From positions 23,473 to 87,472 of the forward strand of contig CACIJJ010000002.1 of assembly GCA_902587025.1 (NCBI GenBank): DNA of 64,000 nt, read 5' to 3'. The position numbers and the translations under genes were made by a program. Below, piece after piece: positions 1 through 57,708 of the stretch. This DNA comes from an uncultured Candidatus Actinomarina sp. Its GTDB lineage: Bacteria > Actinomycetota > Acidimicrobiia > Actinomarinales > Actinomarinaceae. Position 1 is the first letter of the stretch. Each line of letters begins with the position of its first letter. The notes under the pieces were generated by a model. That model saw nothing but the letters and a program-made list of their open reading frames with translations, did not search any database and was not told the DNA's origin.

Positions 1-96
1 AAATGAATCTAAGAAAATGTTTAAAAAAATTTTTTGTTTTCACAACTTTTTTTAGTCTAATAGGATAATAATTAATCTAAATTTGTTTTTTAATAC

Positions 97-102
97 TATA
101 AT
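97..102 (+). promoter_or_regulatory. candidate -10 box (TATAAT) for the tRNA-Asp/tRNA-Phe transcript
   Basis: TATAAT at 97-102, 12 nt upstream of the tRNA-Asp 5' end. No convincing -35. Confidence 0.3.
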
Positions 103-114
103 TTGGAAGTAATT

Positions 115-189
115 GGGGGCGTGGTAAAGTCTGGAGTTTACGCCTGCCTGTCACGCAGGAGGTCGCGGGTTCGAATCCCGTCGTCCCCG
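115..189 (+). tRNA. tRNA-Asp (anticodon GTC)
   Basis: Cloverleaf folded by hand. 7-bp acceptor GGGGGCG/CGTCCCC (one G-U), D-stem GTAA/TTAC, anticodon stem CCTGC/GCAGG with loop CTGTCAC, T-arm GCGGG-TTCGAAT-CCCGT, discriminator G. CCA not encoded. Confidence 0.85.
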
Positions 190-194
190 CTTTT

Positions 195-267
195 GGCCAG
201 ATAGCTCAGTCGGTAGAGCACTTGTCTGAAAAACAAGGGGTCGGCAGTTCGATTCTGCCTCTGGCCA
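195..267 (+). tRNA. tRNA-Phe (anticodon GAA)
   Basis: Acceptor GGCCAGA/TCTGGCC, D-arm GCTC-AGTCGGTA-GAGC, anticodon stem CTTGT/ACAAG with loop CTGAAAA, T-arm GGCAG-TTCGATT-CTGCC, discriminator A. Only 5 nt after tRNA-Asp. Confidence 0.9.
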
Positions 268-336
268 CAAATATCTATAAAAATTTGATTTGAACCTAAT
301 TTATGTTTAGATAATTTCAACTTTAAAATTTTTTGT

Positions 337-852
337 ATGTTTAACAATTATTTTTATCACACTGGAGAAGATGAGCCAATTGTAACTACTGCAGATTCTG
401 ACTTATTAGGGCTTCTTCTTGATTTTATAAAACATCCTTCAGTTGTCCACTTTCCAATTGCATATTCTGTAGCAATACCCTTTGTTGCTTTTGTAATTTA
501 TAAAGCTATTGCAAGTAAAACTATCAAGCTTTCTTGGTGGTACAGCGTCGTATTTACCCAATTTTTAGTATTTTTACTTCTACTTTTAGCTAGGTATACA
601 GGAAATTTGTTATATAGTGAACACGGATATGATTTGAATCCAACTAGTGAAATACAACTTCATTCAACGCTTGGGACATACTCAATTTATATTAATTTAG
701 TTCTTTTAATTGTCAGTATTCTTCCATTTTTACTTCAACGAAATCAAAAAAATCCTAAATTAATTATGAGAACTTACATTTTACTAGCTTTTGGAAATGC
801 TTTATTTATACTCTACATTGGCTACCTAGGTGGACAAATTGTTTGGGGATAA
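337..852 (+). CDS. hypothetical small polytopic membrane protein (cassette 1 cargo)
   Basis: 171-aa ORF with 4-5 hydrophobic segments. Sits between tRNA-Phe and the first tRNA-Phe 3'-half copy. Confidence 0.45.
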   Translation: MFNNYFYHTGEDEPIVTTADSDLLGLLLDFIKHPSVVHFPIAYSVAIPFVAFVIYKAIASKTIKLSWWYSVVFTQFLVFLLLLLARYTGNLLYSEHGYDLNPTSEIQLHSTLGTYSIYINLVLLIVSILPFLLQRNQKNPKLIMRTYILLAFGNALFILYIGYLGGQIVWG

Positions 853-1022
853 ACGCAAAATCATTTAAAAAATAAGCAATCAAAACCGATAAGAAATCGA
901 TAATCGCTAGTTGATGAAGTCTCTTTCAGTTACCACTCATTGACTTGAGGTTGGTCTCACTAACGAGCGATAATTGTAGATGAATAAGTTAAAATGGAAT
1001 AGGCTTGAAAGGTTTCCCCATA

Positions 1023-1067
1023 TCTGAAAAACAAGGGGTCGGCAGTTCGATTCTGCCTCTGGCCACA
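1023..1067 (+). repeat. att-like copy 1 of tRNA-Phe 3' half (identical to 223-267)
   Basis: tctgaaaaacaaggggtcggcagttcgattctgcctctggccaca matches the anticodon loop through the 3' end of tRNA-Phe exactly. Confidence 0.9.
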
Positions 1068-1093
1068 GGGTTTTTACCTAAAAAAAAATTAAG

Positions 1094-1687
1094 ATGAAAT
1101 TTTCAAAAAAAGAAGAATTTTTGAGGCAAATAGATCCTAAATTAAAAAAAATTATTGATAAGAATGGACATTTAATTTTTAAACCAAATAGGCAAAATCA
1201 ATTTGATACTCTAGTTGGAATCGTCATTTCACAATTTATATCAACAAAAGCTGCTAATTCTATTTTTACAAATATAAGGGAAAGCTTTAATTCAGAATAT
1301 CTATATCCCATACACTTTCAGAACATGTCTGTGAATAGGATAAAAAAATTAGGACTTTCCAGCAATAAAGCAAAAACTATTAAAGAGATTTCCGATCTTT
1401 ATTTGAAGCAAAATATAAAAGACTTGTCAGTTTTAAATGATAAACAACTTAACCAAACCCTATTATCAGTTTTTGGAATTGGGCCATGGTCATTGAATAT
1501 GTTTGAAATATTTTGTATTGGTAAATTAGATGTATTCTCGTCAAAAGATGCTGGTTTGAGGCAAGCAATGAATAATTTTGGAATGATAAAACCAGATAGT
1601 AATTGGGAATTGTATGATAAATACGCAAGCAAATGGTCTCCCTATAAATCAATTGCGTCGTTACATCTTTGGAAAACAGTAGATTAG
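1094..1687 (+). CDS. HhH-GPD superfamily DNA glycosylase (AlkA/3-methyladenine glycosylase II-like), cassette 2 cargo
   Basis: Helix-hairpin-helix motif followed by Asp: GIGPWSLNMFEIFCIGKLDVFSSKDAGLRQA. 197 aa. Confidence 0.6.
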   Translation: MKFSKKEEFLRQIDPKLKKIIDKNGHLIFKPNRQNQFDTLVGIVISQFISTKAANSIFTNIRESFNSEYLYPIHFQNMSVNRIKKLGLSSNKAKTIKEISDLYLKQNIKDLSVLNDKQLNQTLLSVFGIGPWSLNMFEIFCIGKLDVFSSKDAGLRQAMNNFGMIKPDSNWELYDKYASKWSPYKSIASLHLWKTVD

Positions 1688-1710
1688 ATAATTTTTACTT
1701 TAGATAATCT

Positions 1711-1754
1711 TCTGAAAAACAAGGGTCGGCAGTTCGATTCTGCCTCTGGCCACA
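1711..1754 (+). repeat. att-like copy 2 of tRNA-Phe 3' half (one G deleted)
   Basis: tctgaaaaacaagggtcggcagttcgattctgcctctggccaca. 43 of 44 positions shared with tRNA-Phe 224-267. Confidence 0.9.
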
Positions 1755-1855
1755 ATAAAAAGTACCTTTTCTATCCTTCTAAAGTATCTTGAAATTACAC
1801 AATTTAATTTTTTTAAAACCTTTAGTTCAATGCTTTTCTTTTTACAATAAATATT

Positions 1856-2617
1856 ATGGATCAATTAAAAAAAAATATTAACTTAAATAATTACAATAAC
1901 GAATTCTCAAAAGCCTTATTAGATTCGGAAAATATTTTTTTTGATATTTATCAACGTTGCAATTTTGAATTCGATTTAAATTGCGGGTCTTACTTATTTG
2001 ACGGTAAGAACTATGAGTACTCTTTAGAAATGTATGATAAACAAAAACTTTTATTTGAAATATCAAAACAAATTAATAGTGTTCTAGAAATTGGTGTATA
2101 TATGGGCCATAGTTTATTAATAATACTTTTGGCAAATCCTAATGTGACCTTTACTGGTATTGATATTGAAGAAAAATATTCAGCTAAAGCAATAAACCTC
2201 CTTTCAAGTTATTTCCCAAACTCAAAACTTGAATTTATACATTCAGATAGTCTTAAAGTATTAAAAAAAATAAATAAAAAGTATGATCTTTTCCATATTG
2301 ATGGTTCTCACAGCTCATTAATTATTTTTAAAGAACTTAAAAAAATATTCAAATTAGTAAATAATCAAAAATTAAAAGTTATTTTTGATGATGTTGATAC
2401 CTGTCAAAATGTAATAGATGCACTTGATAGGTCATTTAAAATTGAAAAAATTATTTATGCAGAAAGTAAATGGAGGAATTGTTATTTAGAGGTAGATTTA
2501 AACAAAAAAATAATTAAAAATTTATTCTTATTTCATTTCTTCTTTTATACAAGCAACTACAGTATTTTTTATAAGCAATATAAATACAAAATTAAAAAAC
2601 TAATTAAAAAAAGTTAA
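1856..2617 (+). CDS. class I SAM-dependent methyltransferase (O-methyltransferase family 3-like), cassette 3 cargo
   Basis: MTase motif I-like EIGVYMGHS, then GIDI and a HIDGSHS acidic motif. 253 aa. Confidence 0.45.
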   Translation: MDQLKKNINLNNYNNEFSKALLDSENIFFDIYQRCNFEFDLNCGSYLFDGKNYEYSLEMYDKQKLLFEISKQINSVLEIGVYMGHSLLIILLANPNVTFTGIDIEEKYSAKAINLLSSYFPNSKLEFIHSDSLKVLKKINKKYDLFHIDGSHSSLIIFKELKKIFKLVNNQKLKVIFDDVDTCQNVIDALDRSFKIEKIIYAESKWRNCYLEVDLNKKIIKNLFLFHFFFYTSNYSIFYKQYKYKIKKLIKKS

Positions 2618-2648
2618 AATTAAAAAGAGGCTTGGTCACAAAAGGATA

Positions 2649-3467
2649 ATGAAAAATAAAATAATATATTGGTACAAAAAATACGTTCCTAGAGGCATTC
2701 AAAAACTTTTTTACATATTAAAAAATATTGATGAATTAATCAAATTAGGACTTTTTAATTTTGAATTGAACAAAGATACAAGAATGTCACAACTAACTTG
2801 GACATATGCAAATTCAAGTAATGTTGACAAGAAGTTTGTTTCGAGAATCACTGAATATATAAATGCTGCAAATAATTTAGATTTACAATTTGATACAAGT
2901 ATTGAACCTGATAAATCTAGACAGTACGAATTTGAATATACAAATATGAATATGTTTCCAGGTGAACATTACAGAATGTTAGTAGGCATTATAAATACTG
3001 AAAATTTTAAAAATTTCATGGAAATAGGTACAGGTTCTGGTATTGCTTCTAAAGCTATTCTTAACAAGACTAATGCAGATATAAACACTTTTGATATTAT
3101 TCCATGGAGGGAAGACGATTCTCATCTTACAAAAGTAGAATTTACCAATAATAGGTTAACACAAATCACTGAAAATTTGTCAAACCCGCAATCTTTCAGG
3201 AAATATTCAGAACTAATTTCTAGCTCTGATTTGATTTTACTCGATGCAGATAAAAGCGGTACTTTTGAGGATTCACTACTTACTAAAATATCTACAATCT
3301 CCTTCGAGATCAAATATAGGCTCCTCTTCATTGATGATATAAGATACTTTTCAATGTACAAAATATGGAAAAAAATTCACAATCCAAAAATTGATCTTAC
3401 TTCATTTGGGCACTGGTCAGGAAGTGGACTAGTAGACATATCAAATGGCTTAATTTATAAAGACTAA
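2649..3467 (+). CDS. class I SAM-dependent methyltransferase-like protein, cassette 3 cargo
   Basis: FMEIGTGSGIAS (GxGxG motif I), then FDII, then LLDADKS. 272 aa. Confidence 0.45.
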   Translation: MKNKIIYWYKKYVPRGIQKLFYILKNIDELIKLGLFNFELNKDTRMSQLTWTYANSSNVDKKFVSRITEYINAANNLDLQFDTSIEPDKSRQYEFEYTNMNMFPGEHYRMLVGIINTENFKNFMEIGTGSGIASKAILNKTNADINTFDIIPWREDDSHLTKVEFTNNRLTQITENLSNPQSFRKYSELISSSDLILLDADKSGTFEDSLLTKISTISFEIKYRLLFIDDIRYFSMYKIWKKIHNPKIDLTSFGHWSGSGLVDISNGLIYKD

Positions 3468-3545
3468 TTTTTTTAGACAATCTATACTCAAACAGAATAA
3501 ATTATTATCAATTGAGATCAAATGTCTTTCCTCAATCAAAAAAGC

Positions 3546-3580
3546 AAGGAGTCGTCAGTTCGATTATGCCTTTGGCCACA
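3546..3580 (+). repeat. degenerate att-like copy 3 of tRNA-Phe 3' half
   Basis: caaggagtcgtcagttcgattatgcctttggccaca differs from the tRNA-Phe 3' half at 4 of 36 positions and ends with the same ggccaca. Confidence 0.7.
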
Positions 3581-3642
3581 ATAAACACATGCTATATTGA
3601 TATACAAAAATTCTACTAAGTCGATTGCTAAAATAAATACAT

Positions 3643-6138
3643 ATGAATCAAGTTAAAAAAAATAACATTTTTATTTTTTTAATAATATTTGTTGTAACTT
3701 TCATTCTCTTCTTATTTTTTAATTTATTTGATCAAAAAAATAATTTAGAAATTAATAAATTAGAAGAAAATATGTGTAAATATCACCATTCATCACTACT
3801 CAAAGAAAATTTTTCAGACACTTCAGTAGTTTTAGATATTCAATATAAAAGTAAAGGACTCTCCGTTTTTCCAGATTTAAAAAACATACTATGTGTCGGA
3901 AAAGTCATAGATTATGAGATTAATTTTTATGAGGAGGTTGGCAATTTAACTTATGTAAAACTTAATTTATATGTATTTACTCATGAAAGAATAATTAACC
4001 TATTAAAAATTTTCTTATTAATATTTATAGTTTATTTCCCAAAACTTCCATTAATTAATGACTCTTTTAGCAAAAATAATAAAATCGTCATTCTTGTATT
4101 TTTTTTACTTTTAATAAACCTAATTTTTAGTCTCAAATTTTCGATTGTTAATTTAATTATTGATATTATTTTTTACTCAACTCTGACAATATTTTTTGGA
4201 TCTGATAGTAAAAGATTTGATTTAGTAAACAAGAAACATAATATTTCCATCGATAGCCTCAGGGCTGTTGCAGTATTAGCAGTAATTTTTAATCACTTTG
4301 GATTTAAGTCTTTCGCAAGTGGCTATTTAGGTGTAGATTTATTTTTTGTTATATCTGGATATGTAATTACTAAAAAATATATACATATTAAAAATGATTC
4401 TTCTTTAAGCTTTTACGCAGAGTTTGTCTTTTTTAGATTAAAAAGAATTATTCCTAATCTAATATTTTTCATTACAATCACTTCAATTTTTGTATACCTT
4501 TTAGATTACAACTATAAAAATACACTTATCGGGGCACTTTTTGCTGTATTTGCAATTTCAAATATTTACTTTTACGTAAATTCACTTGATTATTTTTCAA
4601 TAGACTCTTCATTAAATTCATTTACCCATACATGGTCACTTGGAGTCGAAGAACAATTTTATTTAATTTTCCCTTTTCTAATTTATGCATTTGCAAGAAA
4701 TAAAATAAAAAAATCTTATTTTTTAATTCCTACTCTTTTATCTGTATTTTTGTTTTATTCAAGCACCACTACAAGTCCAAGTGCTACTTATTACTTAATA
4801 CAATATAGATTTTGGCAAATAGCATTAGGTTGCCTCTTAATAATATATAGTTTTGAATTAAAAAAATTAGCAAATCTAATACCAGTAAATGCTTTTTTAA
4901 TACCATTAATATTAGTTTTTACAATAAATACATCATATTCACGAAATTTAACATTGATATCAACCCTATTATTTGCGTTAATTATTTTAGGTATTGGAAA
5001 CTCTGACCAAAAGAGTAAAGTTCTAGAATCACCAAAACTAGCAACAATAGGTGTGTTGTCATATTCCCTATATTTATGGCATTGGCCAGTAATTAGTTTA
5101 TCTAAATGGACAAATTTTAAATTTATGACTTTTGAACTTCAGATGTTATTAATTATTACTCTTTCACTACTTTCTTTTAAATTCATAGAACAACCCTTTA
5201 GAAACATATCAATTGATAAGAGAAAAAAATATTTATTAATTCTATTTTCAACTACATTTTTGGTTTGGGTGTCTGTTTTTTCAATTACTAAATTTACAGA
5301 TAGAGACAATACATTGTCTGGAAACAATCCATACGTATTCGAGAAAAAAGATTACAAAAATATAGTAAATGAAATAGATTGCTATCACCCGAATGACATA
5401 GATAATGCTTTCGAGTCATGTATGGTTTATAAAAATGAAAAAGTAAATGTTTATCTGATTGGAGATAGTCATTCAACAAACCATTTTATTAGTTTAGAGC
5501 AAAACTTTAGAAATCAAGAAAATTATAACTTTAACCACTTAGTTGAGTGGGGGTTTATTAGAGATATCCAAGGGATTAAAGGTTGTGCACCAAGTCAAAA
5601 ATGCATTGAAAATAGTTTTGAAAAGCACTTAAATTTTTTTAGAGAAAACTTAGATAAAAATGATATTGTAATTTTTTCTTTTTCAAGAGATTGGTTCAAA
5701 ATAGATGGAGATTTACCCAGAAAAAATATAAATTCAAAGTTAACAAATTTTGAAAATAATTTTTCTAACTTAATTCAAACAATTAAAAACACTAACGCAA
5801 AAATCATCCTTTTAGATGACATACCTAAAACATGTAGCTCAAATGTAAATTTTTATAACGACATTATTGTGAAAGGCAATATCGATTCTTGTACGGTGTC
5901 AGAGGCTGTATCAATCAAAGATAGAAAAGAGCTCACAGATTTATATTCTAAATTTTTAGATGAAAATACAATTTACCTAGATCCTCACAAGGACTTCTGT
6001 AATGACGGCTTTTGTTCAATAATTGACTTAAAAACAAATGAAATAATGTTTTCAGATCTTTCGCCACATATATCGAAAAATGGACTAAAAATTATGGATG
6101 AATTTTGGAAAAAAAATTTTTACACATTAACTAAATGA
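3643..6138 (+). CDS. OafA-like O-acyltransferase (acyltransferase-3 membrane domain + C-terminal SGNH hydrolase domain) with ~200-aa N-terminal extension
   Basis: Acyltransferase-3 signature LRAVAVLAVIFNHFG...GYLGVDLFFVISGYVI, multiple TM segments, and a C-terminal GDSHS (SGNH) motif in YLIGDSHSTNHF. 831 aa. Confidence 0.7.
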   Translation: MNQVKKNNIFIFLIIFVVTFILFLFFNLFDQKNNLEINKLEENMCKYHHSSLLKENFSDTSVVLDIQYKSKGLSVFPDLKNILCVGKVIDYEINFYEEVGNLTYVKLNLYVFTHERIINLLKIFLLIFIVYFPKLPLINDSFSKNNKIVILVFFLLLINLIFSLKFSIVNLIIDIIFYSTLTIFFGSDSKRFDLVNKKHNISIDSLRAVAVLAVIFNHFGFKSFASGYLGVDLFFVISGYVITKKYIHIKNDSSLSFYAEFVFFRLKRIIPNLIFFITITSIFVYLLDYNYKNTLIGALFAVFAISNIYFYVNSLDYFSIDSSLNSFTHTWSLGVEEQFYLIFPFLIYAFARNKIKKSYFLIPTLLSVFLFYSSTTTSPSATYYLIQYRFWQIALGCLLIIYSFELKKLANLIPVNAFLIPLILVFTINTSYSRNLTLISTLLFALIILGIGNSDQKSKVLESPKLATIGVLSYSLYLWHWPVISLSKWTNFKFMTFELQMLLIITLSLLSFKFIEQPFRNISIDKRKKYLLILFSTTFLVWVSVFSITKFTDRDNTLSGNNPYVFEKKDYKNIVNEIDCYHPNDIDNAFESCMVYKNEKVNVYLIGDSHSTNHFISLEQNFRNQENYNFNHLVEWGFIRDIQGIKGCAPSQKCIENSFEKHLNFFRENLDKNDIVIFSFSRDWFKIDGDLPRKNINSKLTNFENNFSNLIQTIKNTNAKIILLDDIPKTCSSNVNFYNDIIVKGNIDSCTVSEAVSIKDRKELTDLYSKFLDENTIYLDPHKDFCNDGFCSIIDLKTNEIMFSDLSPHISKNGLKIMDEFWKKNFYTLTK

Positions 6139-7493
6139 AAAGATATGATTTAACATTATCAAAGTTAGTATTTGTTTTAATTAGTTTATCAAGCATCTAT
6201 GTCTTAATTTACAATATATTTCACTTTAACCCTATTTTAGGATACGACGCAGAAGCACATTACAGCTATGTAGACTTCCTATCTAGGTATCTACCAAATG
6301 ATATAAAACTACCAACTAAAAATGATACACGAGAATTTTTTAACCCACCTTTGGGCTATGTTGTACCAGCTATAGCACAAGTTTTATGTAGAAATATAAT
6401 TGAGTCAAACAACTTTTTAATTGAGTGCCAACCGATTTATGGAAAGGTAACCCAAATTTTTCAATCATTATTATATATTGCGACAATAATGATTAATTTG
6501 TATACATTGAAATTATTTAATAAATCAAATACATTCCTAAATACTGGGTATTTGATATTGATTTCACTTTTTGCTGTAAACTATAGAACTTTATCAATGA
6601 TAAGGGGTGAGCCATATATTTTATTCTTTTTAAGTTTATTTTTACTTGTAATATTTAAAGCTGAAAAAAATCATTTTCATTTCAATTTTAAATTTATTTT
6701 TTCAGCTGGGGTTGTAATTGCTTGTATTGCTTTAAGTAGACAATGGGGTTTTTTTCTATTTATTCCATTGATATATTTATTATTTCTTCAAAAACCAAAG
6801 AAACAATATTTTTTATTCTGGTTATATAGTTCTTTTTTGGGAGCTTTATTTTCTAGTTGGTTTTATATTGGGCTTTATCAAAAATATGGTTCATTTACAG
6901 CTTTTAATATGCAATCCGAGAGTTTTTCATTCGCAAATCAATCACGTCAATTTTACATCCCAACCTTTAATAATTTTCAATATTTGTTTACTAAACCAAT
7001 AAGGCCTAATTTAGATAATCAGTTTTTTTCAATATTATATTCAGATGTTTGGGGCGATTATTGGGGATATTTTGTTTTCACATCTAGGTTTATCGATATT
7101 GGCCGAAATCAAGAGTTAATCGGAGATTATTTAGCAAGGGTTAATTTAGTTTCTTTTTTTACTTCAACGTTAATAATATCCTTTTGTTTTATTGTTTTTC
7201 GGAAATATAAATCAAATTTTTTAATAAAGTATTTAAATTATGCAATAATATTTAGCTTGTTAGGATATCTTCTCTTCACAATTAATTATCCAACAACAAG
7301 TGGAGATACTATTAAATCTACATATATTATTCAAGTATTTCATTTAATGGCTTTTATGGCTTCTATTTATTTTTATAATTTAAAGAATACAAATCAAAGA
7401 ATCTATAACTTATTATTATCACTTTTGGTAATTATTTATTTCCACAACTTTGAGTCTTATTTATCCCACTATCCTTTTAATTTCCTTCCATAA
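6135..7493 (+). CDS. polytopic membrane protein, possible GT-C-type (ArnT/PMT-like) glycosyltransferase
   Basis: 452 aa with more than 10 hydrophobic segments. Start overlaps the upstream stop (ATGA). No diagnostic motif recognised. Confidence 0.4.
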   Translation: MKRYDLTLSKLVFVLISLSSIYVLIYNIFHFNPILGYDAEAHYSYVDFLSRYLPNDIKLPTKNDTREFFNPPLGYVVPAIAQVLCRNIIESNNFLIECQPIYGKVTQIFQSLLYIATIMINLYTLKLFNKSNTFLNTGYLILISLFAVNYRTLSMIRGEPYILFFLSLFLLVIFKAEKNHFHFNFKFIFSAGVVIACIALSRQWGFFLFIPLIYLLFLQKPKKQYFLFWLYSSFLGALFSSWFYIGLYQKYGSFTAFNMQSESFSFANQSRQFYIPTFNNFQYLFTKPIRPNLDNQFFSILYSDVWGDYWGYFVFTSRFIDIGRNQELIGDYLARVNLVSFFTSTLIISFCFIVFRKYKSNFLIKYLNYAIIFSLLGYLLFTINYPTTSGDTIKSTYIIQVFHLMAFMASIYFYNLKNTNQRIYNLLLSLLVIIYFHNFESYLSHYPFNFLP

Positions 7494-50641: not shown

Positions 50642-50763
50642 TAATACTTTAATTTAAAACTTTGTTCAAAAACAGAAACTATTGTCGGATATATTCATGA
50701 ACAATTATTACACAAAATAAAAATTTAAATAAAAGTAGTGAAGTTTTTTTATAAATTTATTTT

Positions 50764-50807
50764 GTAGGCGCTATAGGATTTGAACCTTTGACTTCTTTTT
50801 TGTAAGG
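50764..50807 (-). repeat. degenerate att-like copy 3 of tRNA-Val 3' half
   Basis: gtaggcgctataggatttgaacctttgacttcttttttgtaagg has about 5 mismatches to tRNA-Val 55281-55324. It is followed by a degenerate agaaccatt...tttatgagttcattgat stretch resembling the long flank repeat. Confidence 0.6.
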
Positions 50808-50900
50808 ATAGAACCATTGACACCAGACTAACTTTATGAGTTCATTGATGTTTGTGATAACGACCCAATACTGAAAGTTTATTTTAACTTTGTGTGTCTT

Positions 50901-51030
50901 TTTTCTATATATATGTAAAGATTTTTGTACAAAATCAGCCAAAGTGCCAATTTTTCTATATATATGAAAAGATTTTTGTACAAAATCAGCCAAAGTGCCA
51001 ATTTTTCTATATATATGTAAAGATTTCTCA
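50901..51030. repeat. ~51-bp tandem repeat, about 2.5 copies
   Basis: ttttctatatatatgtaaagatttttgtacaaaatcagccaaagtgccaat appears at 50901-50951 and 50952-51002, with a partial third copy running into att copy 2. Confidence 0.8.
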
Positions 51031-51220
51031 AAAAACTCTTATGAGCGCTACAGGATTTGAACCTGTGACTTCTTCCTTGTAAGGAAAGAACCATTAAATA
51101 CTAGGTAGTATCAGAAAGTATCAGTTTATAGAGTCAATGAACTTAAGCTTACACAAAAAGATATCAGAGGCTATCAGAGAGTATCTACAGTTTTAGAAAA
51201 TTTTGGTGTCTTTTAGGTGT
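51008..51220. repeat. ~215-bp direct repeat, copy A (att plus flanks, TATCAGA motifs, GTGTCTTTT doublet)
   Basis: About 90% identical to 51798-52003. Contains tatatatgtaaagatttct, the tRNA-Val 3' half, aaagaaccattaaatactaggtagta, 5 TATCAG(A) motifs, and ggtgtcttttaggtgtctttt. Confidence 0.8.
51046..51084 (-). repeat. att-like copy 2 of tRNA-Val 3' half (exact)
   Basis: gcgctacaggatttgaacctgtgacttcttccttgtaagg matches 55285-55324 exactly. Confidence 0.9.
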
Positions 51221-51734
51221 CTTTTATAATTTTTTGTGCCTGAGATCTCACAGCTTTTCTTTCATCATTCTTTAACTGTCTTGCGATACTTATAACATTT
51301 GACTTCAATATTTCGTCTGAATTGGATAATTTTTCTAGAAGTTTTAAACCTTGAGCAAGTATCATCCAGTCTTTACTATTTTCCACCCAACTCATTGCAT
51401 TTTTACTAATAACTTTGTATTCTTTATCGTCAAAATATGAAATGAAATCATAATAAATTGTAATAAGCCCAAGTTTGACTACATTATGTTCAGACTCTGA
51501 AAACTCATCTATGAATCTTTTTTTATTTTCAACAAAAATTTGATTATTACCTTTTATTATTCTTTTTGTTGCATTCATAGCTCTCATTGCAACTAAAGAA
51601 TTGTTAGAAAAAAAACATAAGAATAATTTATCAATTTCTTTTATATTATTTTGAATATGTTCTACTACTTTTAATGTCTCTCCAAGTGAGTTTTGTTTTC
51701 CTTTGCTTAACTCAAATTCAAAATCTAATTCCAT
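51213..51734 (-). CDS. hypothetical protein (alpha-helical, HEAT/ARM-like?), cassette cargo
   Basis: 173-aa ORF flanked on both sides by the roughly 215-bp direct repeats. No recognisable motif. Confidence 0.4.
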   Translation of the reverse strand: MELDFEFELSKGKQNSLGETLKVVEHIQNNIKEIDKLFLCFFSNNSLVAMRAMNATKRIIKGNNQIFVENKKRFIDEFSESEHNVVKLGLITIYYDFISYFDDKEYKVISKNAMSWVENSKDWMILAQGLKLLEKLSNSDEILKSNVISIARQLKNDERKAVRSQAQKIIKDT

Positions 51735-51797
51735 AACTAAATGTATATTACCAAATGAAACTCTACAGAGGTGGTGTCTTCTAGGTGTCTTTTGGGT

Positions 51798-52003
51798 ATA
51801 TATATAAAGATTTCTGATAAACCCTTGTGGGCGCTACAGGATTTGAACCTGTGACTTCTTCCTTGTAAGGAAAGAACCATTAAATACTAGGTAGTACCAG
51901 AGAGTATCAATTTATAGAGTCAATGAACTTAAGCTCTTACAAAAAGATATCAGAAGTTATCAGATAGTGTCTACAGTTATAGAAAATTTGTGTGTCTTTT
52001 GTG
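51798..52003. repeat. ~215-bp direct repeat, copy B
   Basis: tatatataaagatttctgataaacccttgtg, then an exact tRNA-Val 3' half (51828-51870), then aaagaaccattaaatactaggtagtaccagagagtatcaatttatagagtcaatgaactt...tgtgtgtcttttgtgtgtcttt. Confidence 0.8.
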
Positions 52004-52049
52004 TGTCTTTTTATTTTCATACATTATTGCTAGCTATTAATATTTAGAT

Positions 52050-52361
52050 ATGTTCATAAAAAAGAAATCAAAAAAGTTAAAAGTAGAATTTAAAAATATA
52101 CAGACCGATCTTTTAAAAATTAATAAGAAGATTTGTGATCTTTACCAAAAAGTAAATCATCTTAACCTAGAAGAGTTGAGAGAAGAGATAAAAGATTTAC
52201 TAGAGTTTTCAGAAATACAAATAATTAATGAACACAAAGGTTACGATAATTGCTTTACAACATCAAATGGTAAGGAAAATATAATCAATAGGCCAGCTTT
52301 TGTTGATAAATATGGAAATTGTCTTGTACAGGGCTACAGAGAAGTAAAAGAAAAAATCTAA
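52050..52361 (+). CDS. hypothetical small protein, first gene of Hsp70-like operon
   Basis: 103 aa, Lys-rich. Stop lies 5 nt before the ATG of the next gene. Confidence 0.4.
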   Translation: MFIKKKSKKLKVEFKNIQTDLLKINKKICDLYQKVNHLNLEELREEIKDLLEFSEIQIINEHKGYDNCFTTSNGKENIINRPAFVDKYGNCLVQGYREVKEKI

Positions 52362-52366
52362 CTTTA

Positions 52367-54619
52367 ATGAGCAAACAGGCTTTAGGTTTTGATTTTGGTA
52401 CTACTAACTGTACTGTGTCAATTTTTGATAGTGAAGAAGGAATTGCAAAAACACTTCCTATCTCAAATTTTTCAGAGTCAAAGAAAAAGAGTTTAGCTAA
52501 TCAATCATTATTTCCATCAAAAGTTGGTCTTAATAATGATTTTGAATATGTATTTGGTGATGATACAAAAAAATGTGAGCGAGATTTTGTATGGGACAAT
52601 TCCAAAAGATTACTAGAACACAACACTCCAATTTATAGGGGAGGAGTTCATAAAAAACCTATCTGGGTTGCAATAGGTATCATTGCTGGAGTTTTTAAGG
52701 AATTAAAAAATTTATCGATAAAAACTTCATCACCTATGGTAATTACGGTTCCTGCAAACTCTTATAGTGTGCAAAGAAGTCTTACTAGATTAGCTGCTGA
52801 AGCATTTAACTTTAATGTAGATCAATTAGTTTCTGAACCATGCGCAGCAGCTTTAGGTTGTTTCAACTACATTAAAAACTTAAAACATATTTTGATAGTT
52901 GATGTAGGAGGTGGAACAACAGATATTGCTTTATTAGAAAATGATTTTGGGACCTTAAAAGAGATTGAAATTGAAGGCTTGAAAAGATTTGGTGGAATAA
53001 ATATTGATCAAAAACTATTCGACACTTATAAATACGAAGTTGAATTATCGACTGATTCAGAAACATTACTCTTTAGAGATTTACTGGAAGACGTAAAAAT
53101 AGAACTATCAACTAAAAAGAAATCTAAGTTAATTTTTAAAGATCAGGTAATCGAAATTACTAGAGATAGTATTGAAAAATTAATAGAAAAAGATATTGAA
53201 AATTTAGATAAAACTATTGATAGAGTACTTAAAAAGGGAAATGTCGAAGTAAAAAATATAGAGGCTGTTTTACCTATTGGAGGCTCATCTAATATTCCTG
53301 CAATAAGAAATCTTTTGAAAAAAAAGTTTAAATCCAGGTTTATTAATCTTAATTTTGAAGAATCAATAACTGCTGTTGCAAATGGAGCAGCAACAGCTTC
53401 AGCCATAAATGCAAAAATTATTGATAATCTAAGTTTTAAACAGTGTCTAGAACATAGTGTTGGCCTTAGGGTGTGGAGCGGCACTAAAGAAAATAAGATT
53501 TTTAAAGCAATACTTGAAAAAGGATCAGTATTTCCAGCATCAGCAGTAGAAACATTTATCTCGGATACAGATGAATCTGTAGTTGCTTTGTATGAAAGTA
53601 CTTCAGGTAAATTAAAAAATAATGATACAAAATTAATTATTGAAAAAAGAATAAAAACTGGTGTTATGCATGTTGATGTTGAGCTCACCTATGATGACGA
53701 TGGAAAAATAGATATTAAGACATACAACATAAATAAAGGAGAACGTGGAAAATTAGGAGACTTGGGAGACAGTACTGAGGATTCTCAAGGGTATATAAAG
53801 AATTTGCAATCAAAATCTCGTAAGCAAGGAATGGATTTAAAAATTGACAATATAAATTACATAGATTCACAATTAACCCAAAAAAAATTAAAAGAATGGT
53901 CGAATGAGTTTTTAGGGAAGTATAAAAAATATAAAAAAGTATCAAAAAAAGTTAAAAATATATTCAAAAAAGAATTTAAAGATGAATTTGTTTCAATTAA
54001 TAAGGAAAATATTTCTGAAGCAATATTTAAAGTGAGAACAGAACTCGATTTTGGTAGTACTAATGATGCATTTATGTTCGCAAGAGGTATTTTGAAACAT
54101 TCTTTAAGGGTGGTGTTTAATATTGCAGGTTATGAAAAACTTCATCACTTTCAAAGTATTCATAAATTATTAGGAGAAAGAGACGTTGTGTATCAAACAA
54201 CACAGAAGCTTTTACCAGAACAACCTCTTGAAGATATTAGGTGGTTAATAAAAGTTCTTCAGAAATCTAGATATTTAAAGAACTTAGGACACACAAATAC
54301 TCAAGAAGTTAGAGACAGTCTTGAATCATTAAGAACAATCTTAAATAAATTTAGTCATGGTGTTCGTTCAAGTTTTTTTGGATTATTTACAGATTCATTA
54401 GATGAATACGATTCTTCAATTGAAAGTAACATACTAAATGCTGTTTATAAAGAATCTAAATATACACCCCAGGATGTTGTCCTACTGGCCTCTAACGTAG
54501 TCTATTTATTAACTTCTCTAATTAATACAGAAGAATATAAGGGAAAAGATAGAGAAAATCTTATGAAAATGCTAGAAAGTATGCTTGCTTTAGAACAGAC
54601 ATATAAAGATGATTTTTAA
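52367..54619 (+). CDS. atypical Hsp70-family ATPase (DnaK-like NBD + SBD-beta-like region + ~290-aa unique alpha-helical C-terminal domain)
   Basis: LGFDFGTTNCTVSIF (phosphate-1), ILIVDVGGGTTDIALL (phosphate-2), VLPIGGSSNIPAIRNLL (adenosine). No EEVD. The C-terminal half is unrelated to the DnaK lid. The track ORF starts at 52319, but the internal ATG at 52367 follows the upstream stop. Confidence 0.65.
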   Translation: MSKQALGFDFGTTNCTVSIFDSEEGIAKTLPISNFSESKKKSLANQSLFPSKVGLNNDFEYVFGDDTKKCERDFVWDNSKRLLEHNTPIYRGGVHKKPIWVAIGIIAGVFKELKNLSIKTSSPMVITVPANSYSVQRSLTRLAAEAFNFNVDQLVSEPCAAALGCFNYIKNLKHILIVDVGGGTTDIALLENDFGTLKEIEIEGLKRFGGINIDQKLFDTYKYEVELSTDSETLLFRDLLEDVKIELSTKKKSKLIFKDQVIEITRDSIEKLIEKDIENLDKTIDRVLKKGNVEVKNIEAVLPIGGSSNIPAIRNLLKKKFKSRFINLNFEESITAVANGAATASAINAKIIDNLSFKQCLEHSVGLRVWSGTKENKIFKAILEKGSVFPASAVETFISDTDESVVALYESTSGKLKNNDTKLIIEKRIKTGVMHVDVELTYDDDGKIDIKTYNINKGERGKLGDLGDSTEDSQGYIKNLQSKSRKQGMDLKIDNINYIDSQLTQKKLKEWSNEFLGKYKKYKKVSKKVKNIFKKEFKDEFVSINKENISEAIFKVRTELDFGSTNDAFMFARGILKHSLRVVFNIAGYEKLHHFQSIHKLLGERDVVYQTTQKLLPEQPLEDIRWLIKVLQKSRYLKNLGHTNTQEVRDSLESLRTILNKFSHGVRSSFFGLFTDSLDEYDSSIESNILNAVYKESKYTPQDVVLLASNVVYLLTSLINTEEYKGKDRENLMKMLESMLALEQTYKDDF

Positions 54620-55196
54620 AAAAAGAAAAATTCAAAAAATTATTTCACTTCACAAAGATGAGATAGCTGATTTAGAAGATGAATATAGGGAAAAACTAAA
54701 ACTTTTGAAAATTGAGGCTGATAATCATTTGGATAAAGAAATTACCAAATATAAAGAAAAATTAGCAAAAGAACAGAATCAAAAAGCTGATTCTGAAAAG
54801 CAAAAGCTACAAACTAAACATGATAAAGAAATCAAACATTTGATCAACGAATATGAAAAACAAAAAATCTTAGAACTTGAAAAGTTAGAAAAAAAATTTC
54901 GAGACTCTGATGTTTTCACAAAGAAGTTACAAAAGTATTTTTCTGATGAACTTGGCAGAGAGTATCAAGATGTTTCATTTAAAGAGCTTGAAGAAGATTT
55001 GAAAAATGATTTAAAAGAGATTGTATATGAAATTAACGATTTAAATAAGCAAGTTGATGATAGCAAGGATAAACTTTTACAATTTAATGAACTTGCTAAA
55101 GAAATAAATTATTTAGAAGAAGAAATAGGAATTAAACGTAATGAACTTTATGAAATCAAGCAGGCAATCAAAGAACTAAAAAAAGAAGGTAATTAA
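54609..55196 (+). CDS. coiled-coil protein (Lys/Glu-rich), third gene of Hsp70-like operon
   Basis: 195 aa with heptad-like KE-rich repeats throughout. Overlaps the preceding gene by 11 nt. Confidence 0.45.
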   Translation: MIFKKRKIQKIISLHKDEIADLEDEYREKLKLLKIEADNHLDKEITKYKEKLAKEQNQKADSEKQKLQTKHDKEIKHLINEYEKQKILELEKLEKKFRDSDVFTKKLQKYFSDELGREYQDVSFKELEEDLKNDLKEIVYEINDLNKQVDDSKDKLLQFNELAKEINYLEEEIGIKRNELYEIKQAIKELKKEGN

Positions 55197-55220
55197 TTTT
55201 TGCATATTCAAAAAGTAATT

Positions 55221-55279
55221 TGTGTGTCTTTTGTGTGTCTTTTTACTATATATATGTAAAGATTTCTGAAAAACCCTTG
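55221..55279. repeat. conserved tRNA-Val 3' flank (GTGTCTTTT doublet + tatatatgtaaagatttctgaaaaacccttgtg)
   Basis: Same sequence module that precedes each att copy at 51775-51827 and, less well, at 51008-51045. Confidence 0.7.
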
Positions 55280-55353
55280 TGGGCGCTACAGGATTTGAAC
55301 CTGTGACTTCTTCCTTGTAAGGGAAGCGCTCTGCCAGACTGAGCTAAGCGCCC
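55280..55353 (-). tRNA. tRNA-Val (anticodon TAC)
   Basis: The reverse complement folds as GGGCGCT-TA-GCTC-AGTCTGGCA-GAGC-G-CTTCC-CTTACAA-GGAAG-AAGTC-ACAGG-TTCAAAT-CCTGT-AGCGCCC-A. Confidence 0.85.
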
Positions 55354-57015: not shown

Positions 57016-57708
57016 ATGTATACGTTAGACGTAATTGTACCATTTTTTAATGAAGAAGTTTTCCTCAAAGAGTCTGTTGGTAGGTTGTTAAAAACTAGTA
57101 TTCATACAAATATATATTTAGTTGACAATAATTCTGATGATAATTCTCCAGAAATTGCAAAAAAATTATCAAAAGACAGAGAAGATGTTCATTATGTAAA
57201 AACACCAGAAGTGTCTGGTAAGGGATTTGGAATACAAACAGTAATGCCATATTTAAAATCGTCTCATGTTGTGATCCACGATGCAGACCTTGAATACTTT
57301 CCAGAAGATATTATTGAAATGTTTGATTTAGCAAAACAAAATCAAAAATCTTTAATTCTAGGTTCACGATTTATTGGATCAAAAATAAGACAAAATATCT
57401 ATTTGAGAACATTTATAGCAAATAGAGTTATGTCATTATTTTTTTCTTTAGTAAATTTTTACAGAATTTCAGATGTAGCATCATGTTATAAATTGATGCC
57501 CGTAGAGTTTCTAAAAAATATAGACCTTAAAGAAAAGGGATTTTCAATAGAGATTGAACTACTCTCCAAATTTTTAAAATTCAACAGATCTGTTTTAGAA
57601 GTACCTATTTCATATGAAGGCAGATCATATGCAGATGGAAAAAAGATAAAAGCAACAGATGGGTTACAGTATTTGTTTAATACAATTAAATACAGGTTTA
57701 TAAATTAA
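57016..57708 (+). CDS. GT2 glycosyltransferase, polyprenol-phosphate sugar synthase (DPM1/ArnC-like)
   Basis: LDVIVPFFNEEVFL, then YLVDNNSDDNS, then HDADLEY. Confidence 0.75.
   Translation: MYTLDVIVPFFNEEVFLKESVGRLLKTSIHTNIYLVDNNSDDNSPEIAKKLSKDREDVHYVKTPEVSGKGFGIQTVMPYLKSSHVVIHDADLEYFPEDIIEMFDLAKQNQKSLILGSRFIGSKIRQNIYLRTFIANRVMSLFFSLVNFYRISDVASCYKLMPVEFLKNIDLKEKGFSIEIELLSKFLKFNRSVLEVPISYEGRSYADGKKIKATDGLQYLFNTIKYRFIN

What the first reader, a model, noticed from the sequence alone, without database searches (positions are those of the whole stretch)
115..3580. tRNA-Asp/tRNA-Phe integration hotspot with three serially inserted cassettes bounded by tRNA-Phe 3'-half copies
The last 42-45 nt of tRNA-Phe, from the anticodon loop to the discriminator, recur at 1023-1067 (exact), 1711-1754 (one deletion) and 3546-3580 (4 mismatches). 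Each copy closes a small cargo cassette: a membrane protein, an HhH-GPD glycosylase, and two methyltransferases. This is the classic attL/attR footprint of tyrosine-integrase insertion into a tRNA 3' end, repeated three times. The increasing degeneracy away from the tRNA gives a relative age order. The large glycan island begins immediately after the oldest copy.
Basis: seen in the sequence. Interest (0 to 1): 0.7.

Follow-up and report, generated by a model that had tools for sequence, protein, structure and literature searches.

The report
Actinomarina tRNA-Phe integration cassette array
This is the edge of the already described cell-surface sugar island of the tiny marine actinobacterium Actinomarina (not a cyanobacterium), where small gene cassettes pile up next to the tRNA-Phe gene. 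Related DNA from the sea now shows the integrase-carrying elements that most likely put them there.

Summary
The last 45 nt of tRNA-Phe (225-269) recur at 1023-1067 (45/45), 1711-1754 (one deletion) and 3536-3580 (38/45), and nowhere else in the 64 kb.

The organism is Candidatus Actinomarina, not a picocyanobacterium. The locus is the tRNA-Asp/Phe border of the glycan island fGI1. López-Pérez et al. 2020 already reported cassettes there that end in partial-tRNA repeats, but found no mobile elements.

Comparison with other DNA supports site-specific integration:
- Sister contigs 99% identical to the window lack exactly the 798-bp cassette 1.
- That cassette sits at 98-99.6% identity in several other array positions and lineages.
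- Copies 2 and 4 are preceded by a conserved attP-type arm. Copy 3 is a bare core.
- A family of about 400-aa tyrosine integrases always lies about 170-660 nt upstream of a tRNA-Phe core, with Xis-like, repressor-like and helicase genes.
- One such 6.3-kb element, minus its 5.35-kb mobility module, equals an integrase-less cassette in other genomes.

The window has no integrase. Only cassette 1 is demonstrably mobile. The HhH-GPD gene looks like a vertically inherited island-edge gene. Degeneracy of the copies is not a reliable clock. The phenomenon is known; the integrase link is the increment.

The parts
115..190 (+). tRNA-Asp (GTC). It is a neighbour, not an integration target; no partial copies exist.
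   Evidence: ARAGORN; Rfam 60.3 bits; no partial Asp copies by blastn-short.
195..268 (+). Intact tRNA-Phe (GAA). This is the attB/attL site. Its last 45 nt (225-269) form the core shared by all copies.
   Evidence: 75.3 bits. It is 100% identical in about 30 Actinomarina loci.
270..1022 (+). Cassette 1: a single DUF2231 membrane-protein gene (337-852) plus a 150-nt attP-type P arm. It is a discrete, recently mobile unit without an integrase.
   Evidence: Pfam. It is absent from the 99%-identical sister contigs L116 and L118-L120. It is present at 98-99.6% identity in other array positions in L014, L121, L122, L124, L127 and L128. The exact protein occurs in 281 blocks of the collection.
880..1022 (+). 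P arm of cassette 1: a conserved module upstream of the partial core. It includes paired direct repeats AAAACCGATAA / GAAATCGATAA at 882-903, in the position of arm-type sites.
   Evidence: An HMM built without the window sequences matches 880-1067 at E = 7.6e-41. Alignment A2.
1023..1067 (+). Core copy 2 (45/45), the attR of cassette 1. It is followed by the native tRNA-Phe downstream flank GGGTTTTTACC, which is terminator-like.
   Evidence: The same flank directly follows the intact tRNA-Phe in L116, L018 and L019.
1094..1687 (+). HhH-GPD DNA glycosylase gene (Pfam HhH-GPD; weak, below-cutoff similarity to AlkA/DNA-3-methyladenine glycosylase 2). It is probably a vertically inherited island-edge gene rather than a mobile cassette.
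   Evidence: Pfam and NCBIfam. It lies directly after tRNA-Phe in L116 and L118-L120. Orthologues at 71-73% identity in L121-L123 and L129 have no flanking cores.
1711..1754 (+). Core copy 3 (one G deleted). It is a bare core with no P arm upstream; the HhH-GPD stop codon is 23 nt away.
   Evidence: The HMM match covers only model positions 151-195. Homology with L121 ends at 1707.
1856..2617 (+). Class I O-methyltransferase (Methyltransf_3/24).
   Evidence: Pfam E = 1.5e-10. The exact protein is not on record elsewhere.
2649..3467 (+). Divergent YrrM-like O-methyltransferase homologue. In other lineages its start codon directly abuts a core copy.
   Evidence: L129, L130 and L131 carry a core 0-2 nt before the ATG. 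A possible vestigial core lies at window 2629-2640.
3484..3535 (+). Degenerate half P arm upstream of copy 4.
   Evidence: An independent HMM matches 3484-3580, model positions 99-195, at E = 1.6e-14.
3536..3580 (+). Core copy 4 (38/45), an old attR-type junction. It is followed at 3581-3610 by ATAAACACATGCTATATTG, which resembles the P' arm of the L049-type element.
   Evidence: L049 1378-1448 matches window 3540-3610 at 83%.
3643..6138 (+). AT3 + SGNH acyltransferase, the first gene of the glycan island proper.
   Evidence: Pfam. Downstream genes are GDP-mannose dehydratase, TylF, GT1, Wzy_C, DegT and GT2.

Best explanation
The window is the tRNA-Asp/tRNA-Phe border of flexible genomic island 1, the envelope-glycan island, of a Candidatus Actinomarina genome.

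The site. tRNA-Phe is the attB of a family of small integrative elements. Their attP holds the same 45 nt, from the anticodon loop to the 3' end. Crossover in or near the 7-nt anticodon loop rebuilds the tRNA and leaves a partial copy at the far end of the insert. Later arrivals push earlier ones outward.

The autonomous elements. They are 6-12 kb, are seen only in related contigs, and carry:
- a tyrosine integrase of about 400 aa with a putative N-terminal arm-binding domain (weak AP2-like hit);
- an HTH_17 Xis-like protein;
- an HTH_3 repressor-like protein;
- an AAA_25 helicase;
- cargo genes.
Their arms carry paired short direct repeats. The same element-specific word appears in both arms, as expected of arm-type sites.

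How cassettes arise. Loss of the mobility module by internal deletion leaves 'cassettes' that have att sites on both sides but no integrase.

In the window:
- Cassette 1 (DUF2231) is such a unit and was gained recently.
- Copy 2 marks the old tRNA end, followed by native DNA (HhH-GPD).
- Copies 3 and 4 are older, partly eroded junctions around two methyltransferase genes.

Shown: the repeats, the indel polymorphism, the integrase-att linkage, the deletion derivative and the matched arm words.
Inferred: catalysis by this integrase, the crossover position, and whether integrase-less cassettes move through integrase supplied in trans or by homologous recombination between cores.
For: Organism and locus:
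- A 27-mer of the core hits 46 loci, nearly all Ca. Actinomarina, OCS155 or Acidimicrobiia.
- The flank upstream of tRNA-Asp/Phe is syntenic and the downstream side is hypervariable.
- The window has 27% G+C, matching the published 28% for the island.

Fixed boundaries:
- Partial copies in dozens of loci nearly all start at tRNA nt 31-32 and end at nt 74-75.
- Base 1 varies together with the upstream arm, and base 45 with the downstream flank.

Indel tests:
- Window 1023-4639 equals L116 62-3677 at 99.3%, with tRNA-Phe directly in front. The sister lineage therefore lacks exactly cassette 1.
- L014 equals L024/L032 plus that 798-bp unit.
- The cassette order is 36 then 11 in L014, but 11 then 36 in L122.
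- Cassette 1 is 98-99.6% identical in places where the neighbouring genes are only 71-73% identical.

Integrase:
- A remnant lies in L005 (Pfam E = 6.6e-9) and a frameshifted copy in L047.
- The repaired query finds intact proteins of 381-410 aa, P0017 to P0064.
- In every context where the flanking DNA was long enough to tell, the integrase is followed within about 170-660 nt by a P arm and a tRNA-Phe core: L049-L051, L054, L055, L057 and L060-L063. In L049, L051-L053 and L056 the intact tRNA-Phe gene (in L050, L054 and L055 a truncated core at the contig start) lies at the other end of the element.
- The element genes are annotated by Pfam and PHROGs.

Deletion derivative:
- L023 and L045 equal L049 minus positions 1492-6844, with 99% identity on both sides.

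Arms:
- The conserved P arm is shown in alignment A2.
- An HMM built without window sequences hits window 880-1067 at E = 7.6e-41 and 3484-3580 at E = 1.6e-14.
- Twelve of 32 non-redundant cassettes share a word of at least 9 nt between the P' and P arms. The permutation mean is 1.7 and the maximum 8 in 5000 trials.
Against: - The 64-kb window has no integrase homologue. Only 2 of the 46 reference loci carry even a remnant.
- None of the three window cassettes has a convincing matched P'/P word pair.
- Copy 3 has no P arm, so the simple serial-insertion model does not explain it.
- No circular or tandem attP junction of cassette 1 was found in metagenome contigs: 0 hits, against 17 attR junctions.
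- The link between integrase and att site rests on adjacency only; there is no functional test.
- The 45-nt cores could also support RecA-mediated exchange. That would give the same boundaries.
Confidence: 0.8

Rival explanations
1. Homologous recombination, not an integrase, moves the integrase-less cassettes. DNA taken up from relatives recombines through the 45-nt cores, which act as portable homology. The integrase-bearing elements only seeded the repeats.
For: - There is no integrase in the window and almost none in the reference genomes.
- Cassette 1, the one demonstrably mobile unit, lacks clear P' arm words.
- The high-identity tracts end inside or at the cores, as crossovers within the cores would produce.
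- No circular junction was found.
Against: - 45 nt is short for RecA-mediated exchange.
- Integrase-less cassettes keep a well-conserved 150-nt P arm, and 12 of 32 keep matched arm words. That is unexpected if these sequences are no longer used.
- Cassette 11 (620 bp) has both arm pairs intact.
Confidence: 0.3
2. The copies are functional tRNA-like genes or RNA processing or terminator signals, kept for expression of the cassette genes.
For: - ARAGORN calls an 80-nt 'tRNA-Phe' at several partial copies in independent loci.
- The copies retain the T-arm hairpin.
- A weak terminator-like site lies at 1057-1078.
Against: - Rfam scores 21.8 bits, below the gathering score of 29.
- RNAalifold on 28 P-arm-plus-core sequences finds no covarying structure beyond the T arm and a pseudo-anticodon stem.
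- Copies decay (38/45 at copy 4). They also flank genes on either strand in other genomes.
Confidence: 0.03
3. The locus is a picocyanobacterial (Prochlorococcus) tycheposon or cyanophage integration site.
For: - The composition is AT-rich.
- The island architecture resembles that of Prochlorococcus (bioRxiv 10.1101/2020.12.28.424599).
Against: - None of the 46 genome hits is cyanobacterial.
- tRNA-Phe is not among the seven tycheposon target tRNAs.
- There are no phage or IMG/VR matches.
Confidence: 0.01

Closest known systems
Additive cassette hot spots at the tRNAs of fGI1 in 'Candidatus Actinomarinales' (López-Pérez et al. 2020, PMC7771536). The same region is the tRNA-bounded hypervariable region of 'Actinomarina, resolved' (bioRxiv 10.64898/2026.04.03.716425).
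   Same: - Same organism group and same island.
- Same tRNAs; Phe and Asp are listed at the island border.
[quoted passage not shown]
- Same low G+C.
   Different: Those papers report no integrase and call the genomes free of mobile elements. The 2026 preprint says the integration mechanism is still to be identified. Here an integrase-bearing element family, its arms and a deletion derivative are traced in related contigs.
Tycheposons of Prochlorococcus (Hackl et al., bioRxiv 10.1101/2020.12.28.424599).
   Same: - Small tyrosine-recombinase elements that target the 3' ends of tRNA genes.
- An optional helicase or primase module, plus cargo.
- Tandem insertions separated by partial tRNAs, and degenerate remnants that build islands in streamlined marine bacteria.
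   Different: - Different phylum and a different tRNA; Phe is not one of the seven targets.
- The integrase reads outward towards attR, rather than being described as inward-facing.
- Relatedness of the integrases was not tested.
CIMEs and IMEs: cis-mobilisable, att-flanked deletion derivatives of integrative elements, as described in Streptococcus thermophilus (own knowledge).
   Same: Both have att sites on both sides, no int or xis gene, and an origin by deletion from an autonomous element. Here that origin is shown by L023 against L049.
   Different: Trans-mobilisation has not been shown here. The units here are very small, down to 620 bp with a single gene.
Integron cassette arrays.
   Same: Stacks of mostly single-gene units, each ending in a recombination site. 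In the simple model the newest unit lies next to a fixed attachment site. The recombinase is a tyrosine recombinase.
   Different: - No resident IntI, attI or Pc promoter.
- The sites are tRNA-derived double-stranded att sites with arm repeats, not folded attC hairpins.
- Cassette genes occur on both strands.
Lambda- and Tn916/Tn1549-type integrases that integrate at the anticodon loop of tRNA genes (sublocation classes of Williams 2002, own knowledge).
   Same: - The identity block runs from the anticodon loop to the 3' end of the tRNA.
- Imperfect inverted repeats flank a 7-nt loop.
- Arm-type direct repeats are present.
- The closest solved structures are 3NKH and the Tn1549 Int.
   Different: Sequence similarity is low: all NCBIfam hits fall below their cut-offs. 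The partner proteins differ.

Membership tests
Actinomarinales fGI1 tRNA cassette hot spot (PMC7771536) | Lies at the tRNA border of the envelope-glycan island of an Actinomarinales genome with low G+C. | tested here: met
   One search gives the organism. The window is 98.9% identical to the Ca. Actinomarina SAG locus L014 over tRNA-Asp to core copy 2 (window 1-962). Glycan genes are confirmed. The window has 27.4% G+C.
Actinomarinales fGI1 tRNA cassette hot spot (PMC7771536) | [quoted passage not shown] | tested here: met
tRNA-targeting tyrosine-integrase integrative element (att footprint) | The identity block starts in the anticodon loop or T loop and runs to the tRNA 3' end, and the intact tRNA is regenerated. 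| tested here: met
   Copies start at nt 31-32 and end at nt 74-75. The tRNA-Phe scores 75.3 bits.
tRNA-targeting tyrosine-integrase integrative element (att footprint) | Presence/absence polymorphism with exact att boundaries in close relatives. | tested here: met
   L116 and L118-L120 against the window. L014 against L024.
tRNA-targeting tyrosine-integrase integrative element (att footprint) | An integrase gene lies inside the element next to an att site. | tested here: not met
   The window has no integrase. The feature is met only in related loci: L049-L064, with remnants in L005, L047 and L048. The window cassettes are therefore derivatives, not autonomous elements.
tRNA-targeting tyrosine-integrase integrative element (att footprint) | Recombination is catalysed by the associated integrase; excised circles exist. 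| tested here: inconclusive
   The junction scan gave 0 hits, against 17 attR controls. There is no biochemical test.
Tycheposon (Hackl et al.) | Integrates at one of the seven Prochlorococcus island tRNAs: Pro, Ser, Ala, Thr, Arg, Met or tmRNA. | tested here: not met
   The target is tRNA-Phe in an actinobacterium.
Tycheposon (Hackl et al.) | The integrase belongs to the tycheposon tyrosine-recombinase clade. | not tested
Only generic Phage_integrase hits were obtained.
Tycheposon (Hackl et al.) | An integrase at one end, an optional small replication module, and cargo. | tested here: met
   L049 and L054 carry Int, an AAA_25 helicase, and cargo (a GNAT, or an Mrr/helicase protein). The orientation is outward-facing, unlike the published description.
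Integron | A resident IntI next to attI, and attC hairpin sites. | tested here: not met
   No integrase in the window. No covarying hairpin in the sites. NCBIfam integron-integrase hits fall far below their cut-offs.
CIME-like non-autonomous element | att sites on both sides, no int or xis, derived from an autonomous element by deletion. | tested here: met
   L023 and L045 equal L049 minus 5.35 kb. Cassette 11 has both arm-word pairs. Within the window this applies to cassette 1 only in part, because only its P arm is recognisable.
CIME-like non-autonomous element | Mobilised in trans by a related integrase. | not testable with these tools
   This needs an in vivo or in vitro assay.

The most novel reading that the evidence does not exclude
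Actinomarina, reported to lack mobile elements, diversifies its envelope-glycan island through a two-tier system. Rare autonomous Int/Xis/helicase elements specific for tRNA-Phe supply integrase in trans to abundant one-gene mini-elements. These mini-elements keep complete attL and attR arms, and element-specific arm-site words act as an address code. In function this would resemble an integron, anchored on an essential single-copy tRNA and with no resident integrase.
Probability: 0.35. Interest if true: 0.55.

Novelty: already known. Interest (0 to 1): 0.3.

Why it matters
The published work on Actinomarinales describes the cassettes and their partial-tRNA repeats. It states that the genomes lack mobile elements, and the 2026 preprint says the integration mechanism remains to be identified.

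Tracing an integrase family that always sits next to the tRNA-Phe core, together with a caught-in-the-act deletion derivative, gives a concrete and testable mechanism. It would explain how one of the most streamlined and abundant ocean bacteria renews its cell-surface genes, which are probably under phage pressure.

For the scan itself the lesson is different.

Tried and rejected
- **Prochlorococcus/tycheposon framing.** Rejected once the genome scan returned only Actinomarina-type genomes.
- **Viral origin.**
  - The att 31-mer has 0 hits in IMG/VR.
  - The integrase finds only relatives of 37% identity or less there.
  - blastn of window 270-3580 against 50,697 phage records finds nothing.
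- **Second tRNA-Phe gene at 987-1066.** Rejected; it is below the Rfam threshold.
- **Structured RNA in the P arm.** No covariation.
- **Copy degeneracy as a clock.**
  - It is monotonic in the window.
  - In L005, L018, L028, L040, L047 and L048 an internal copy is more degenerate than a more distal one.
- **Integrase in the window.** None by tblastn.
- **First homologue search with the L005 fragment.** It gave only truncated proteins. A conceptual repair of the L047 pseudogene was needed.
- **Cognate integrase for cassette 1's arm word (CGATAA).** Not found among the fetched elements.
- **Circular or tandem junction of cassette 1.** 0 hits.
- **Exact look-up of the 253-aa methyltransferase.** Not on record.
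- **HhH-GPD as a mobile cassette.** Not supported.

Full report
**1. Observation**

ARAGORN and Rfam place tRNA-Asp at 115-190 and tRNA-Phe at 195-268. The 45 nt from the last base of the 5' anticodon-stem strand to two bases past the discriminator (225-269) recur three times:
- at 1023-1067, 45/45;
- at 1711-1754, with one G deleted;
- at 3536-3580, 38/45.

A 31-mer of this block has three exact hits, against none in 100 shuffles. Profile and low-stringency searches find no other copy in the 64 kb.

ARAGORN's extra 'tRNA-Phe' at 987-1066 scores 21.8 bits in Rfam, against a threshold of 29, so it is not a gene.

- a DUF2231 membrane protein;
- an HhH-GPD glycosylase;
- one clear O-methyltransferase;
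- a second ORF that is a methyltransferase only through its homologues.

The next gene is an AT3-SGNH acyltransferase. About 45 kb of sugar-modifying genes follow it.

**2. Organism and prior knowledge**

A scan of one genome per species with a 27-mer of the core returned 46 loci. Nearly all come from Candidatus Actinomarina, OCS155 or Acidimicrobiia single-cell and metagenome genomes, and none is cyanobacterial. The window is 98.9% identical to a Ca. Actinomarina SAG locus over tRNA-Asp to core copy 2 (window 1-962).

López-Pérez et al. 2020 (PMC7771536) describe this situation. The envelope-glycan island fGI1, 43-79 kb and 28% G+C, uses its tRNAs as targets for gene cassettes. [quoted passage not shown] Asp and Phe are single-copy tRNAs. 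Those authors report a 'total absence' of mobile genetic elements apart from three IS elements and one prophage in tRNA-Val, and the word 'integrase' does not occur in the paper.

A 2026 preprint confirms the tRNA-bounded hypervariable region, with Phe and Asp on one boundary. It says the integration mechanism remains to be identified.

The finding is therefore an instance of a published phenomenon, and the 'picocyanobacterial' frame is wrong. tRNA-Phe is not among the seven tycheposon tRNAs of Prochlorococcus.

**3. Comparative test of mobility**

In the fetched loci the genes upstream of tRNA-Asp/Phe are syntenic, while the downstream side differs in almost every genome.

Each locus holds zero to five partial tRNA-Phe copies. 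Nearly all start at tRNA nt 31-32 and end at nt 74-75. Base 1 of the block (T or C) varies with the upstream sequence, and base 45 (A, C or T) varies with the downstream sequence. This brackets the crossover within the block.

- Contigs L116 and L118-L120 are 99% identical to the window but have tRNA-Phe directly followed by the HhH-GPD gene. Window 1023-4639 equals L116 62-3677, so they lack exactly the 798-bp unit.
- L014 equals L024/L032 plus the same unit.
- The cassette also sits second, behind three different cassettes, in L121, L122 and L127. It has other right-hand neighbours in L124 and L128.
- The order of cassette 1 and the 127-aa 'cassette 11' is reversed between L014 and L122.
- It is 98-99.6% identical in genomes whose neighbouring HhH-GPD genes are only 71-73% identical. 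That implies recent horizontal spread as a discrete unit.
- Its exact protein occurs in 281 blocks of the collection.

**4. The other two 'cassettes'**

*The HhH-GPD segment.*
- It is the native DNA downstream of tRNA-Phe in the sister contigs. It includes the GGGTTTTT terminator-like flank that follows the intact tRNA in other genomes.
- Its orthologues in other lineages have no flanking cores.
- Copy 3 has no element-derived arm. The profile match covers the core only, and homology with L121 stops 3 nt before the core.
- It therefore cannot be called an inserted cassette, and the origin of copy 3 is unexplained.

*The methyltransferase segment.*
- It ends in half a P arm plus copy 4 (E = 1.6e-14 with a model that excludes window sequences).
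- It is followed by a sequence resembling the P' arm of an autonomous element.
- In three other lineages a full core abuts the start codon of the second methyltransferase. The window has only a doubtful 12-nt vestige there, at 2629-2640. The segment may therefore be composite.

*Copy degeneracy.* It rises outward in the window (45, 45, 44, 38 of 45). In six of the eight other arrays examined an internal copy is more degenerate than a more distal one. It is a hint, not a clock.

**5. The recombinase**

L005 carries a 145-aa C-terminal tyrosine-recombinase remnant about 170 nt upstream of a partial copy. Its homologues are all truncated. L047 holds a frameshifted but otherwise complete copy.

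The conceptually repaired protein retrieves a family of intact proteins of 381-410 aa, with a Phage_integrase domain and a weak AP2-like N-terminus.

Wherever the fetched DNA extended far enough to tell, the integrase is followed within about 170-660 nt by the conserved arm and a tRNA-Phe core. This holds even for members only 46% identical to the query.
- L049 shows a complete insertion: tRNA-Asp, tRNA-Phe, then 6.3 kb, then a core, then cassette 11 and another core. The 6.3 kb holds an 88-aa gene, an AAA_25 helicase, an 80-aa gene, an HTH_17 Xis-like gene, an HTH_3 gene, a 295-aa gene, the integrase and a GNAT gene.
- L054 and L055 are relatives of 10-12 kb with Mrr/helicase cargo.

L023 and L045 equal L049 with positions 1492-6844 removed, at 99% identity on both sides. 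What remains is the 74-nt P' arm, the GNAT gene, the P arm and the core. This directly shows how integrase-less, att-bounded cassettes arise.

The window itself has no integrase homologue.

**6. The arms**

Twenty-eight sequences upstream of partial cores align over about 150 nt. At their far end is a pair of 11-12-nt direct repeats with an element-specific core:
- CCGCACACA in L049;
- CTGTCACA in cassette 11;
- GTTGGAAC in L054/L055;
- ATGGCGACA in L064;
- CCGATAA/TCGATAA in window 882-903.

The same word recurs as a pair just after the proximal core of the same element. Among 32 non-redundant cassettes, 12 share a word of at least 9 nt between their two arms. The permutation mean is 1.7 and the maximum 8 in 5000 trials.

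This is the pattern of arm-type integrase sites. It fits a putative N-terminal arm-binding domain (inference from the weak AP2-like hit).

The arm next to the core (GCCCTTA) forms an imperfect inverted repeat with AAGGGG across the 7-nt anticodon loop, as expected of core-type sites. RNAalifold finds no other conserved structure, so these are best read as DNA sites.

Cassette 11, 620 bp with one gene, keeps both arm pairs. None of the window's cassettes does.

**7. What remains open**

It is not settled whether integrase-less cassettes move by integrase supplied in trans or by homologous recombination through the 45-nt cores. Both predict the observed boundaries.
- A scan of metagenome contigs for the circle or tandem junction of cassette 1 found nothing.
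- A control pattern found 17 attR junctions with at least 14 different right-hand contexts.
- The elements have no close relatives in IMG/VR or in phage records.
- The closest solved structures are 3NKH and the Tn1549 integrase.
- No curated NCBIfam model claims the integrase.

**8. Verdict**

The mechanism is right in kind and proven for one cassette. The organism is wrong, and two of the three cassettes and the age order are over-read.

The phenomenon is already published for this order of bacteria. These deserve a modest follow-up.

Noticed in passing
window 50762-55353: The far side of the island mirrors the tRNA-Phe side.
- tRNA-Val(TAC) at 55279-55353 (-) has three 57-nt copies of its 3' part at 50762-50818, 51039-51095 and 51825-51881.
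- Each copy is flanked by short paired direct repeats (for example GGTGTCTTTT twice).
- A 3 x 51-nt tandem lies at 50900-51052.
- The cassette next to the tRNA encodes an Hsp70-like 766-aa protein (52319-54619) and a 195-aa ORF with no Pfam hit.
- Mizuno et al. 2013 (PMC3861242) reported a putative phage fragment with an integrase and a 43-bp att site identical to tRNA-Val of Ca. Actinomarina.
   Followed up: partly
window 987-1066; also L007, L014, L024, L028, L037, L038: ARAGORN repeatedly calls an 80-nt 'tRNA-Phe' (anticodon at position 39-40) at partial copies. The arm upstream of the core offers a pseudo-acceptor stem and a pseudo-anticodon stem. Rfam rejects it (21.8 bits). This is an annotation trap.
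   Followed up: yes
window 2629-2640: GGCTTGGTCACA lies just upstream of the start codon of the second methyltransferase. It may be the vestige of a fifth core, because in L129, L130 and L131 a full core abuts the ATG of the orthologue. The evidence is weak.
   Followed up: partly
L016, L030, L043, L044: A copy of tRNA-Phe nt 22-27 to 74 abuts the start of a conserved gene near a tRNA-Gly/Cys/Val(GAC) cluster, and there is no intact tRNA-Phe at that place. In one contig (L030/L041) the intact gene lies elsewhere. [quoted passage not shown]
   Followed up: no
L062 3048-3087: Here the left neighbour of an integrase-bearing tRNA-Phe element is a 40-nt fragment of the tRNA-Val 3' end, instead of tRNA-Phe. 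This suggests rearrangement, or near-complete loss of the island, in that genome.
   Followed up: no
L004 (reverse strand, between tRNA-Asp 6264-6189 and tRNA-Phe 5332-5259): An 0.85-kb segment carrying a 258-aa methyltransferase sits between tRNA-Asp and tRNA-Phe, with no detectable repeat. Not all insertions at this locus leave an att footprint.
   Followed up: no
L049 7515-7550; L047 1920-1965; L059 end: Three to four direct repeats of CTTGACCCT / CTTGA(A/G)ACT lie about 180-210 nt upstream of the core in integrase-bearing elements. They are distinct from the arm words and may be sites for the Xis-like or repressor-like protein.
   Followed up: no
L049 4282-5169 and its counterparts in L054, L058, L060, L064: A conserved protein of 255-317 aa is translationally coupled to the integrase gene. 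It has no Pfam, PHROG or NCBIfam hit. It is an unknown partner present in every autonomous element seen.
   Followed up: partly
window 57990-58066: Three 24-nt tandem repeats lie inside the class II ribonucleotide reductase gene (57705-61097, - strand).
   Followed up: no
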